Part shown: one piece after another, positions 18,001-21,000 of the stretch
Layout: each line of letters begins with the position of its first letter
How positions within the stretch are numbered: position 1 is the first letter of the stretch
Assembly: GCF_022846255.1 (NCBI RefSeq)
Contig: NZ_AP025682.1
Source: Escherichia coli
GTDB lineage: Bacteria; Pseudomonadota; Gammaproteobacteria; Enterobacterales; Enterobacteriaceae
DNA length: 64,000 nucleotides
Reading direction: 5' to 3' (one strand)
Made by a program: the position numbers

Positions 18001-21000
18001 TTGGTATATATATTAATGGCTTGAAAAAATTTATTTGACGTCAAATAAACAGGTACGGCTAGTATTGAGTATCCATACCCGATATTAAGAAAACCATCTT
18101 CAACCCTTATAGCAAAAGCTCTGCTAGAAAAAAGGTAAAGAATTACGTCAAATATACTTATTTTTCAGATACAAACTTTACAAAGCCTCTTTTTTTTCAA
18201 AGCCACTAAGTAAACTCAAAAGATCTCTAAATTCCTTTTTCTTAATACATTATCAAAAGTTAAAAAATCCATGAAGCAGCATTCCTGTTAAGCGACATGC
18301 TTTCTTGAATTTTCGATAATTAATTGAATCCATTCATCGATTTCGCTTTCTACAAAAGCGGTAGCACGAATACCGATCTTTACTGGCTGTGGGAACCGAT
18401 TTTGGCTGATAAGACGATAGATCCACGCTTTACCAAATCCAGTTTTCTTCATGACTTCTGGTAAACGGATGAGACGAGCTTGATTTTCCATATGTATGTC
18501 CTCTGTTGTGTCTACAGGGCTACAGTACAAATGAATTTCGAATGGATGAAGCGAGATTACGAACATCAGAGCCATCCCTGGCTCGAAACTATGAGTCTCT
18601 GGAGATTCATATCACTCAGAGTCTGAGAGTTTCATAACATCCGAAACCCTCATTTCTTTAACATGCTGATTTTTATTGATAAAAAAGTTAAATTGCCTTA
18701 AAAAATCAATTTCTACAGTTTTCATTGCGAAAGGCCGATCAGCATCTCTTATATGATATCCTTGGCGAATCGCCTTATCATCATCTTCATCCGTGTATAG
18801 CAATCGAGATAATCTGTCGTCTGACAGAAGTAATTTTTTTCTTTCTGACCATGCGAGCAAATCAAGCATAGGGATAATTCGATAGCTAATTAATTTTTTT
18901 ATTGCCCCATAACCAAATCTGACTGCATCAAGTGGTGCAGGTTTAACGCCTTTTACTTTTCGCCATTGTGGTAATGATACTCGCAGGGCCTCAGCTATCT
19001 CATCATCGCTTCCACCCGCAAGATCGATTTCTAACATAATCGTAGTAGGAAACTGTTCAGGAATTTTTTCGGAAATATATTCATTTTCAATAGTGGAATC
19101 AATTTTATATTGTTCTGTATTTGCTCTAATGAATAAAGCCTTTCTCATACAATCAAAACTGATATTTGCTATTCGATCAACAGTAGTAATAAAAAAGTAT
19201 GGGGGTTGATATAATTTATTTTCGGCATCCATATAATTTAAGTGCTTCTCTTTGATAAGAAAAGGATCACCATCCAATATCTGCATATAATTTTTCAATA
19301 CTGTTTTCTGCATTCCTTCTTCTATTACTGGTTTGAAAAAATAGGTTCTCGCCCATATTTCATGGTAAAGCATATTAATAGAAATGTTTTCAAACCCTCG
19401 ATATTTGTCCAAATCAAACCACGTTTTCACTGCTTTGGTGTCTTCTGATGTCCAACTATTCATTTTTACCCAAGATTTCATTAATGCCACTCCGTTGTAA
19501 AAAGTTTTACTTCGTAATAGCACATAAATCGCAAATAAAAAAATGGCGTCTCAATTGGTTATTGAATACGCCATTTTACTCATAAAAATCAGTTAGTTAT
19601 TAAAATCAAAAGGTGCAATTCTTCTCTTAGTTGTTTCATCAAGATAATCAGCCCACCACTGCAACATCAACCTACGCTCATCCAAATGCTCAGCTTTATG
19701 AATGTATGCGGCACGAACGGAGTTCCGCTCCTGATGGCTCATCTGCCTCTCAACAGCATCTCTCGACCACTTTCCTGACTCGATCAAAGCACTACAAGCC
19801 ATCGCTCTAAAACCATGCCCACATACCTCAACGGTTGTGTCATAACCCATCGCCCTGAGCGCCTTGTTCACTGTGTTTTCGCTCATAGGTTTTCTGAAAT
19901 CATGATCGCCAATGAATACCAGGTCGCATTCGCCGCTGATTTCTCTGATGGCTTTTAGAAGTTCTAAAGCCTGACGACTTAACGGCACGAGGTGTGGGGT
20001 CTTCATTTTTGAACCTCGATGGGAATGTTTGACTCCTGGCAATAGCTCGCGTTCTCCAGGGATAGTCCACATCGCATTTTCAAAGTCGATCTCCGACCAT
20101 CTTGCGAATCGGAGTTCAATGGAACGGATAAAAATGAGCAATGTCAGCTTCACAGCTAATTTAGTAAGTTTCCTACCTTTAAAGCTTTCAATGCGCTCTA
20201 AAAGCTCTGAGAACCTATCAAATGGTAAGGCTGGTCTGTGGGTTCGTTTCGCAACTGTAATTGCCCCAGACATATCTTGTGCTGGATTGTAGTCAATTAA
20301 GCCATTCTGGACGGCATATCGCATTACTGCCGTAGTCCTTTGCTGTAGTCGGGAAGCAACTTCCAGTCGTCCAGAAGCTTCAACGGCCTTGATAGGGGCG
20401 ATAAGATCTCTGGTATTAAGCTCGGATATTTTTCTTTTACCAATAGCAGTAAAGAGACCATCCTCCATGCTTTTTAGAACTCTTTCGCTGTGAGAATCTG
20501 ACCATTTCCTTTTACAGGCAGTATGCCAGTCCCTTGCAACAGCTTCGAATGTCAGGGCTTCGCTTTGCTCAATCTTATCTGCTTTTTTCTTTTCAGAAGG
20601 ATCGATACCATCAGATACCAACTTTTTGGCTTCATCTCGCTTCCTGCGGGCTTCACCAAGAGAGACCATTGGATAAACACCCAATGCTAAAACTTTCTGT
20701 TTGCCCCCGAAACGGTATTGGAGTCGCCAGTACTTTGAACCATTGGGGTTGATCAGCAGGTGCATACCCTGCCCATCTGTGAGTTTGAAAGGTTTATCGG
20801 AGGGCTTTGTTGTTCGAACTTTGATATCAGTGAGTGCCATCAGTTGATACCTCCATTGTTGGTACCAAAATCAATCGAACCGAGAATACCATCAGTTATA
20901 CCATCATCGGTTGGTATATGTTCAAGGAATTGAGTAGACGTGAACAGACTAAGCCAAGTCAGAAACTCGCTTAACTTACTGTTTTTTTGGACTAAAGTAG

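What the first reader, a model, noticed from the sequence alone, without database searches (positions are those of the whole stretch)
18030..18157. Perfect 20-bp palindrome and a nearby half-site upstream of the recombinase trio
tttatttgacgtcaaataaa (18030..18049) is a perfect palindrome centred on GACGTC in the AT-rich leader of the first recombinase gene. A related half-site (acgtcaaatata) recurs about 100 bp away at 18144..18155. This could be a recombinase or regulator binding site, or one terminus of the recombinase-trio element.
Basis: seen in the sequence. Interest (0 to 1): 0.35.

Follow-up and report, generated by a model that had tools for sequence, protein, structure and literature searches.

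The report
Conserved palindrome beside GInt crossover site
The 20-base palindrome in front of a three-recombinase operon in an E. coli genomic island is real and conserved in about 80 related elements, and it lies three bases from what looks like the element's own recombination crossover site, so it is probably a docking site for one of the element's proteins rather than the element's end.

Summary
The palindrome TTTATTTGACGTCAAATAAA is at 18030-18049, 124 bp upstream of the first recombinase gene. A palindrome this long turns up by chance in about 10% of shuffled windows, so comparison with relatives is what shows it is real.

The trio plus the small fourth gene is a ginABCD operon (GInt family). 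It lies inside a leuX island behind int, DUF6387 and alpA.

In about 80 related loci the palindrome keeps its position and comes in three alleles (GACGTC, CACGTG, AACGTT cores). These differ by symmetric changes and follow the gin lineage, not the alpA side or the host.

The palindrome lies 3 bp from a core-type site. Two 11-bp imperfect inverted arms (18069-18079 and 18053-18063) flank a 5-nt spacer (18064-18068). That spacer is hypervariable between near-identical islands, yet fixed in about 300 O157/O55 genomes. gin modules and alpA-side modules reassort at this site. Its layout matches published GInt attI and SE attS joints.

My best reading is an accessory binding site for a dimeric gin-encoded protein, with GinD the leading candidate. 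The main rival is a weak insulating terminator. The "half-site" (really 18145-18156) belongs to a separately conserved box whose ACGT is not conserved.

The parts
18030..18049 (.). 20-bp perfect palindrome TTTATTTGACGTCAAATAAA (type-1 allele), the feature in question
   Evidence: Same position in about 80 loci. Three alleles differ by symmetric changes at +/-3 and +/-7 from the centre.
18024..18029 (-). T6 run (read in the gin direction) directly after the palindrome. It is conserved in type-1 and type-2 elements and absent in type 3.
18050..18052 (-). 3-nt linker (CTG in the gin direction) between the right arm and the palindrome. Its length is invariant in all loci.
18053..18063 (-). gin-proximal (right) arm of the core-type site, ACTAGCCGTAC in the gin direction
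   Evidence: invariant or nearly so in about 80 loci
18064..18068 (-). Hypervariable 5-nt spacer (TCAAT in the gin direction), the presumed crossover region
   Evidence: mean pairwise difference is 0.4-0.7 here against 0.0 in the arms; fixed in about 300 O157/O55 genomes.
18069..18079 (-). gin-distal (left) arm, GGTATGGATAC in the gin direction. It is an imperfect inverted repeat of the right arm (8 of 11).
18080..18184 (-). Conserved non-coding segment of about 115 bp (with the left arm) that starts with the invariant TGTAAAGTTT (18173-18182). It follows the alpA-side module in its variation.
18135..18156 (-).
   Evidence: The conserved part is TTTnAC...CTTTAC. The ACGT is not conserved across lineages.
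17918..17926 (-). Second direct copy of the TTTGTAAAG motif, just 5' of the ginA ribosome-binding site
16700..17905 (-). ginA, tyrosine recombinase, 401 aa
15385..16710 (-). ginB, tyrosine recombinase, about 437-441 aa
13757..15388 (-). ginC, 543 aa, with no Pfam or NCBIfam hit. Its 96%-identical O157 counterpart is listed as a ginC ortholog by Idola et al. 2023.
13358..13756 (-). ginD, 132 aa, identical to WP_001052044.1, which is listed as a ginD ortholog. The model shows an N-terminal helical domain plus a 40-residue helix.
18288..18491 (-). alpA-family gene directly upstream of the conserved segment. It is part of the int-DUF6387-alpA module.
19593..20840 (-). P4-type integrase next to leuX (21030-21114). 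The island ends at a 73-bp leuX repeat at 2891-2963.

Best explanation
The palindrome is a cis-acting part of the attachment region of a GInt (ginABCD) recombination module.

Read in the gin direction, the region runs as follows: a conserved segment of about 115 bp, then the left arm GGTATGGATAC, a 5-nt variable spacer, the right arm ACTAGCCGTAC, 3 nt, the palindrome, a T-run, about 120 bp, and ginA.

I infer that the two arms and the spacer are the core site where Gin recombinases exchange strands. I also infer that the palindrome is bound by a dimer of a gin-encoded protein, which helps build or direct the recombination complex and may also limit gin expression. GinD is the best candidate because it is the only non-recombinase gin product and its model shows a small helical domain plus a long helix.

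Shown here: conservation, the symmetric alleles, the fixed 3-nt distance to the arm, the hypervariable spacer, and reassortment at the site. Inferred: protein binding, the identity of the protein, and strand exchange at the spacer.
For: Conservation and alleles:
- The palindrome is at the same place in 13 enterobacterial genome loci found through GinA and about 67 metagenome loci.
- There are three alleles: TTTATTTGACGTCAAATAAA, TTTCTTTCACGTGAAAGAAA and TATTTAACGTTAAATA.
- Of all cells, 96% are symmetric. Two position pairs change on both sides, and no intermediate allele shows a change on only one side at these two pairs (the degenerate L009 copy aside). None of 500 shuffles reaches the observed covariation.
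- The type-2 allele persists down to 46% GinA identity (L014).

Link to the core site:
- The palindrome is always exactly 3 nt from the right arm, while its distance to the ginA ATG varies from 124 to 141 nt.

Which protein it follows:
- The alleles follow the gin lineage. The same 100%-identical AlpA is paired with type 1 (window) and type 2 (L013, L069, L085).
- alpA and the 140-aa gene also occur without the palindrome in the gin-less islands L004 and L005.
- Type 1 and type 2 both occur in E. coli, which argues against a host factor.

Evidence that the adjacent site is a core site:
- It has 11-bp arms matching 8 of 11 as an inverted repeat.
- Spacer mean pairwise difference is 0.4-0.7, against 0.0 in the arms.
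- Islands with 99-100% identical 400-bp flanks differ at 3-4 of 5 spacer bases.
- Pairs of loci with the same upstream module but different gin modules have a left-segment distance of 0.022 against a gin distance of 0.32.

Agreement with the literature:
- SE attS is defined as imperfect inverted repeats around a 6-bp spacer (PMC10214605).
- Pseudomonas GInt attI reads gat-7 variable nt-AGAGCC (PMC5385486 Table S2). Here the sequence is GAT-ACnnnnn-ACTAGCC.

Against: - There are no binding data.
- GinD residues next to the invariant RQSLSSH stretch do not sort simply with the palindrome allele. L014 has the type-2 palindrome but different residues.
- Three alleles amount to only two or three independent events. 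Template-switch correction of quasi-palindromes could also produce symmetric changes without selection; that point rests on my own knowledge.
- The Pectobacterium copy L009 has lost the left half.
- A T-run follows the palindrome. In three distant GInt relatives the same position holds a GC-rich hairpin plus T-run, which favours the terminator rival.
Confidence: 0.5

Rival explanations
1. The palindrome plus the T-run is a weak intrinsic terminator. It insulates ginABCD from transcription that enters from upstream: from alpA here, or from the target gene when a GInt is integrated through its own site.
For: - The palindrome is followed by T6-T8 in all type-1 and type-2 loci.
- alpA is co-oriented and about 240 nt upstream.
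- The compensatory changes keep the stem intact.
- Three distant GInt relatives inserted after ssb (L019, L021, L023) carry a GC-rich hairpin plus T-run about 30 bp inside the junction, which is the equivalent position.
- Bardaji et al. detected transcription entering ginA from outside the element (PMC5385486).
Against: - The hairpin is weak: -5.4 kcal/mol for type 1 and -7.8 for type 2.
- The type-3 allele keeps a 16-bp dyad but does not fold (-1.7 kcal/mol, z = +0.6) and has no T-run.
- The consensus terminator scan does not report it.
- The central ACGT, which would be the loop, is invariant, and a hairpin does not require that.
- The invariant 3-nt distance to the core arm has no role in a terminator.
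Confidence: 0.2
2. The palindrome is only a transcriptional operator or activator site for the ginA promoter, with no role in recombination.
For: - A -10-like hexamer (TAATAT in type 1, TAAATT in type 2) lies 14 nt after the palindrome. That would centre the palindrome near -36 (read).
- A more distant trio (L006, 38% GinA identity) has a different palindrome 52 nt upstream of its ATG.
- L019 and L021 have short palindromes within promoter-like sequences.
Against: - The consensus scan finds no sigma-70-like promoter on the gin strand between the site and ginA in the window, L013 or L011. It finds 0 against 2-3.6 expected from shuffles.
- The -10-like hexamer is not conserved as a valid -10 in all lineages: TAAATG and TAATAA also occur.
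- The distance to the ATG varies by 17 nt, while the distance to the core arm is fixed.
Confidence: 0.12
3. The palindrome is itself the terminus or crossover site of the trio element, with the 18145-18156 motif as a second half-site bound by the same protein.
For: - The palindrome lies within 20 bp of the point where gin and upstream modules reassort.
- In the window the distal motif shares 10 of 12 bases with a palindrome half.
- Both contain a TTTnAC hexamer.
Against: - The variable, reassorting position is the 5-nt spacer 14 nt away, not the palindrome, which is invariant within each lineage.
- A zero-spacer palindrome has no overlap region for strand exchange.
- No copy of the palindrome or its half exists elsewhere in the island.
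- The distal motif does not co-vary with the palindrome allele and loses its ACGT in Pantoea-type, L014, L049 and L009 lineages.
Confidence: 0.05
4. It is a chance palindrome in AT-rich DNA, conserved only because the copies are recent.
For: Twenty-one of 200 composition-matched shuffles of the window contain a perfect palindrome with arms of 10 or more.
Against: - It is kept at GinA identities of 46-70%, where the surrounding non-coding DNA is full of substitutions and indels.
- The symmetric double changes argue against drift.
Confidence: 0.02

Closest known systems
[quoted passage not shown] 2017, PMC5385486)
   Same: - The window has a four-gene operon: two Pfam-positive tyrosine recombinases, a third large protein with no Pfam or NCBIfam match (its 96%-identical O157 counterpart is listed as a ginC ortholog), and a small helical protein.
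- The window's GinD is identical to WP_001052044.1, and the O157 GinC and GinD are listed as ginC/ginD orthologs in Additional file 10 of PMC10214605.
- The site has a GAT-variable-AGCC layout like the Pseudomonas attI, and a variable overlap region as reported for reconstructed attI sites.
   Different: - The operon does not delimit the island.
- Both halves of the site are element-type and always occur together.
- The island is bounded by leuX repeats next to a P4-type integrase.
- No attL/attR pair was found.
- A MOB relaxase is present, whereas GInts were described as non-mobilizable.
- No palindrome or other cis site has been described for GInts.
Strand-biased circularizing integrative elements (SE; Idola et al. 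2023, PMC10214605)
   Same: - The joint attS is defined as imperfect inverted repeats around a 6-bp spacer.
- That spacer is carried over from the previous location as a 'fingerprint' or 'footprint'.
- SEs also have four core proteins, including an inactive recombinase-fold protein and a small protein.
   Different: - The SE gene order is intA-tfp-intB-srap.
- GinC/GinD and Tfp/Srap form separate clusters.
- NCBIfam gamma-mobile-trio GmtY scores far below its cut-off here.
Tn554 (TnpA, TnpB, TnpC)
   Same: - Tn554 moves site-specifically by tyrosine recombinases and carries a 6-bp memory of the previous site.
- The small TnpC is the GinD/Srap counterpart according to the papers.
   Different: - Tn554 has only two recombinases.
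- Its hosts are Firmicutes.
- No sequence similarity was tested here.
Accessory-protein sites next to tyrosine-recombinase core sites (lambda attP Xis/IHF/Fis sites, cer/psi accessory sequences)
   Same: In both, a protein-binding element lies at a fixed short distance from a core site and influences assembly or direction. This comparison rests on my own knowledge and is an analogy of function only.
   Different: - Those sites are bound by host factors or Xis and are not zero-spacer 20-bp palindromes.
- No homology is claimed.
P4-type / EARL-like tRNA islands (int-DUF6387-AlpA backbone; PMC10763509)
   Same: The window has int with Arm-DNA-bind_3, then DUF6387, then AlpA next to a tRNA gene, with a direct repeat of the tRNA 3' end at the far side.
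   Different: The islands described so far do not carry a gin module directly after alpA. The related leuX islands L004 and L005 carry a replication-initiator module there instead.

Membership tests
GInt | ginABCD operon: three recombinase-type genes followed by a small gene, co-oriented and tightly packed | tested here: met
   The ORFs are 401, 441, 543 and 132 aa, overlapping or abutting on the minus strand. Phage_integrase matches the first two. The same order is seen in about 80 loci.
GInt | GinC and GinD orthology to the Pseudomonas stutzeri GInt proteins | tested here: met
   WP_001052044.1 is the GinD of TUM11353 and is 100% identical to the window's GinD. It, together with O157 WP_001059531.1 and WP_001052051.1, is in Additional file 10, 'ginC and ginD orthologs', of PMC10214605.
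GInt | gin operon delimits the 5' end of the island, and the island is flanked by imperfect 10-17-nt direct repeats (attL, attR) that are chimeras of attI and attB | tested here: not met
   Upstream of the site lie alpA, DUF6387, int and leuX. The island ends at a leuX repeat. There is no second arm-like site and no second copy of the spacer context beyond chance.
GInt | attI with a variable 6-7-nt overlap between conserved element ends (Table S2: gat-agaCGTA-AGAGCC) | tested here: inconclusive
   The site reads GAT-ACnnnnn-ACTAGCC with a hypervariable centre. The resemblance is short, and cleavage points are unknown.
GInt | All four genes are needed for excision and integration, and a circular intermediate forms | not testable with these tools
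   This needs genetics and PCR.
SE (strand-biased circularizing integrative element) | Gene order intA-tfp-intB-srap, with Tfp/Srap orthology | tested here: not met
   The protein with no Pfam hit is third, not second. The proteins are listed among GinC/GinD orthologs, which cluster apart from Tfp/Srap.
SE (strand-biased circularizing integrative element) | The joint of the two ends forms imperfect inverted repeats with a 6-bp spacer | tested here: met
   The 11-bp arms match 8 of 11. The spacer is 5 variable nt plus a conserved A. This shows likeness of form, not membership.
RIT (recombinase in trio) | Three catalytic tyrosine recombinases between terminal inverted repeats of about 34 bp, with no fourth protein | tested here: not met
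   A fourth conserved gene is present. No long terminal inverted repeats or second copies of the end motifs were found. The definition is from PMC10214605 Table 1.
Intrinsic terminator | Stable G+C-rich stem-loop followed by a U-run | tested here: inconclusive
   The U-run is present. The stem energy is only -5.4 to -7.8 kcal/mol. Type 3 has neither a stable stem nor a U-run, and the scan does not report the site.
Promoter operator | Overlap with a recognisable promoter of the regulated gene | tested here: not met
   No sigma-70 consensus promoter was found on the gin strand between the site and ginA in three lineages.
P4-type / EARL-like tRNA island | Integrase with arm-binding domain next to a tRNA gene, AlpA-family gene, and a direct repeat of the tRNA 3' end at the far end | tested here: met

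The most novel reading that the evidence does not exclude
The whole leuX island is a GInt circle that entered the chromosome through a captured P4-type integrase and so kept its own attachment site closed. The 5-nt spacer is a barcode rewritten at each Gin-mediated event. The site is the point where gin modules and int-alpA modules are swapped between islands. The palindrome is the GinD docking site that decides whether and in which direction the core is used.
Probability: 0.3. Interest if true: 0.65.

Novelty: new variant of a known kind. Interest (0 to 1): 0.45.

Why it matters
GInts carry virulence, resistance and defence genes, and orthologs are present in O157:H7. Apart from 10-17-nt flanking repeats, no cis-acting site has been defined for them, and the role of GinD is unknown.

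This analysis delimits a conserved block of about 60 bp (arm, spacer, arm, 3 nt, palindrome, T-run) with three natural palindrome alleles, which gives direct probes for binding and swap experiments. It also shows that in Enterobacterales the gin module sits with both halves of its site joined inside tRNA islands, and that modules reassort at that point. That bears on how such islands exchange cargo and integration functions.

Tried and rejected
- **Copies elsewhere in the island.** I looked for the palindrome or its half elsewhere, as would be expected of terminal repeats. There are none.
- **A second core-like site (attR).** I searched with arm patterns and with a half-site score. The best other hit was 12 of 16, which is chance level.
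- **A partner site sharing the spacer.** Six loci had a second 9-mer against 6.7 expected.
- **Plasmid-borne or split copies.** There are none in PLSDB. None of the roughly 360 gin-carrying E. coli genomes among the 5426 searched has one half without the other. A second GinA look-up showed the same neighbourhood in all 24 contigs read.
- **Empty target sites in gin-less sister islands.** L004 and L005 have no arm-like sequence.
- **In-situ hypermutation of the spacer.** I rejected this because the spacer is identical in about 300 O157:H7 and O55:H7 genomes.
- **Known RNA family.** There is no Rfam match.
- **AlpA, the 140-aa protein or a host factor as the binder.** These are disfavoured by module reassortment and by their occurrence without the palindrome.
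- **The boundary at 18184.** I first took the end of the megablast match there as the element's end. It is really an indel-rich stretch next to a more diverged alpA.
- **The more distant trio family (L006).** Only two genomes carry it, which is too few to test for a variable spacer.
- **The first GinA protein search.** It returned only near-identical O157 sequences and added nothing.
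Full report
**1. Observation**

The sequence TTTATTTGACGTCAAATAAA is at 18030-18049 and is a perfect 20-bp palindrome. The 10-mer ACGTCAAATA occurs exactly three times in the window: the two palindrome halves and this site. A relaxed search for the palindrome core finds nothing else relevant.

By chance alone the palindrome is not remarkable. Twenty-one of 200 composition-matched shuffles hold a perfect palindrome with arms of 10 or more, and a longer one lies at 36656-36679. The case for function rests on comparison with relatives.

**2. Context**

The window is Escherichia coli chromosome. tRNA-Leu(CAA), leuX, is at 21030-21114. On the minus strand it is followed by:
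- a P4-type integrase (19593-20840);
- a DUF6387 protein;
- an AlpA-family protein (18288-18491);
- the 382-bp gap that holds the palindrome;
- four tightly packed genes of 401, 441, 543 and 132 aa.

The low-GC island runs to a 73-bp repeat of the leuX 3' end at 2891-2963. Beyond that repeat a second integrase starts a tandem island.

The first two of the four genes match Phage_integrase. The third and fourth match nothing in Pfam or NCBIfam.

This is the ginABCD arrangement of GInts (PMC5385486). The window's fourth protein is identical to WP_001052044.1. That accession, and the O157:H7 counterparts of the third and fourth proteins, appear in the list of ginC/ginD orthologs of Idola et al. 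(PMC10214605, Additional file 10).

**3. The palindrome in relatives**

I collected 17 loci from species genomes through GinA and 72 metagenome loci through a pattern for the neighbouring site. Five of the 72 are chance hits without gin genes. I also fetched several E. coli records.

In every true locus a palindrome sits at the same place. It has three alleles:
- **Type 1**, TTTATTTGACGTCAAATAAA, where GinA is at least about 94% identical to the window's.
- **Type 2**, TTTCTTTCACGTGAAAGAAA, where GinA is 46-72% identical.
- **Type 3**, TATTTAACGTTAAATA, in two loci with 67% identity.

The alleles differ at positions +/-3 and +/-7 from the centre, always on both sides. Of all cells, 96% are symmetric, and none of 500 shuffles reaches the observed covariation. 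These are few independent events, so the statistic overstates the evidence. One copy, from Pectobacterium (L009), has a degenerate left half.

**4. The neighbouring site**

The alignment in the gin direction shows a block that is far more conserved than the coding sequence:

ATATCGGGTATGGATAC - 5 nt - ACTAGCCGTAC - 3 nt - palindrome - T-run

The two 11-bp arms are an imperfect inverted repeat (8 of 11). The 5 nt between them (window 18064-18068) differ in almost every locus. Mean pairwise difference is 0.4-0.7 at these positions and 0.0 in the arms and palindrome, in three separate groups of 16-32 distinct sequences.

Islands at leuX whose flanking 400 bp are 99-100% identical carry different spacers: TCAAT, GTACA, TTATA, TTAAT or GTTTC. 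In contrast, about 300 O157:H7 and O55:H7 genomes share one spacer. So the spacer changes with horizontal events, not by steady local mutation.

The site is also a reassortment point. The window and L013 are about 100% identical from leuX to the site and about 68% identical after it. The conserved segment of about 115 bp to the left of the site follows the alpA side. Pairs with the same upstream but different gin have a segment distance of 0.022 against a gin distance of 0.32. Pairs with the same gin but different upstream have a segment distance of 0.118. At least four upstream backgrounds are each combined with two gin types.

**5. What the site is**

Its form matches what the literature calls attS in SEs: imperfect inverted repeats around a 6-bp spacer that is carried over from the previous location. 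It also matches attI in GInts. Table S2 gives gat-agaCGTA-AGAGCC, with variants in the middle after excision. Here the sequence is GAT-ACnnnnn-ACTAGCC.

Both halves are always together:
- The 127-bp left part occurs in 363 E. coli genomes, essentially the same number that carry gin (365 matched the 1.1-kb query spanning ginA and the site).
- No plasmid carries the region.
- A further GinA look-up shows one neighbourhood only.
- The gin-less sister islands L004 and L005 have no arm-like sequence and carry a replication-initiator module instead.
- No second site exists in the island.
- Variable cargo runs up to the leuX repeat.

I therefore favour a closed joint. On this reading the gin module is not integrated through its own site here, and the whole island is held at leuX by the P4-type integrase. 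The alternative is an attL in a target that is always occupied. It is not excluded, but it lacks an attR and lacks empty sites. Where new spacers come from remains unexplained.

**6. What the palindrome does**

The palindrome lies 3 nt from the right arm in all loci, while its distance to the ginA ATG varies from 124 to 141 nt. Its alleles follow the gin module.
- The same AlpA protein is paired with types 1 and 2.
- alpA and the conserved 140-aa gene also occur without any palindrome.
- E. coli hosts both type 1 and type 2.

**7. Rival explanations**

*Terminator.* The T-run, the co-oriented alpA upstream, and GC-rich hairpins with T-runs at the equivalent place in three distant GInts inserted after ssb all speak for it. 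Against it, the hairpin is weak (-5.4 and -7.8 kcal/mol). Type 3 keeps the dyad but neither folds nor has a T-run. The would-be loop ACGT never varies. I put this at 0.2.

*Pure operator.* No sigma-70-like promoter is found on the gin strand in three lineages. I put this at 0.12.

*The palindrome as terminus or crossover.* The variable position is the spacer, not the palindrome. I put this at 0.05.

**8. The "half-site"**

It is part of a conserved box, TATATTTGACGTAATTCTTTAC in the gin direction, at 18135-18156. The box lies in the left segment, on the other side of the core.

Across lineages the conserved part is TTTnAC...CTTTAC. The ACGT becomes ACAG, ACTA or ACAA, and the box does not follow the palindrome allele. 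It shares the hexamer TTTnAC with the palindrome halves, so a common ligand cannot be ruled out, but nothing supports one.

A related motif, TGTAAAG, recurs at three places: the start of the segment (18173-18182), inverted in the box, and just 5' of the ginA ribosome-binding site (17918-17926). Similar motifs occur in distant relatives.

**9. Comparison and novelty**

The operon is a member of the GInt family by gene order and published orthology. The island does not have the canonical GInt layout (see the membership table). The GInt papers in the searched library that I checked describe no palindrome or other cis-acting site. The nearest functional analogies are accessory-protein sites beside tyrosine-recombinase core sites, which is a comparison from my own knowledge.

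I rate the finding as a new variant of a known kind. It is of moderate interest, mainly because it turns a poorly understood recombination system into something testable with defined probes.

**10. Limits**

Everything about binding, cleavage and transcription is inferred. The metagenome loci were found with a pattern that required both arms, so they cannot reveal split sites. Only the GinA-based loci and the E. coli searches are free of that bias.

Noticed in passing
window 18064-18068: The 5-nt spacer between two conserved 11-bp inverted arms differs between islands that are otherwise 99-100% identical. It is fixed in about 300 O157:H7 and O55:H7 genomes. The source of new spacers is unexplained.
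   Followed up: yes
window 1959-2963: A second P4-type integrase gene lies next to a 73-bp repeat of the leuX 3' end (2891-2963). This means two islands sit in tandem at leuX.
   Followed up: partly
L004 6865-8960 and L005 (E. coli leuX islands): Sister islands with the same int-DUF6387-alpA and the same 140-aa gene and relaxase carry a replication-initiator module where this island has ginABCD.
   Followed up: partly
L019, L021, L023 (about 130 bp upstream of ginA): Distant GInt relatives sit directly after an ssb stop codon (..DDDIPF*). They carry a GC-rich hairpin plus T-run about 30 bp inside the junction, followed by promoter-like sequences with short palindromes.
   Followed up: partly
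window 18173-18182, 18135-18140, 17918-17926: The motif TGTAAAG recurs at the start of the conserved segment, inverted in the box, and just before the ginA ribosome-binding site. (T/C)GTAAA also recurs in L006, L021 and L023. It could be an arm-type protein site.
   Followed up: partly
window 17906-18290; L013 5600-6030; L011 5600-6030: The AT-rich region between the site and ginA holds no sigma-70-like promoter on the gin strand. The scan finds fewer such sites than shuffles give (0-3 against 2-3.6). One outward-facing site lies on the + strand at 17927-17956.
   Followed up: no
window 3000-12800: The cargo of the island, as annotated in the near-identical TUM11353 record, includes an N-6 DNA methylase, a 'sensor histidine kinase', two hypothetical proteins and a MOB relaxase. 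It may be a defence system on a mobilizable island. MS1657 carries different methylases and an HNH nuclease at the same place.
   Followed up: no
window 36656-36679 and 52740-52757: There are perfect GC-rich palindromes of 24 bp (AAGGCCGGAGCATGCTCCGGCCTT) and 18 bp outside the island.
   Followed up: no
L001 (O157 strain 644-PT8) 4409-13786: In O157:H7 the same gin module lies next to ypjA with no adjacent integrase. It is cut off on the cargo side by an IS30 fragment and a lambdoid prophage, which may explain why its spacer is frozen.
   Followed up: partly
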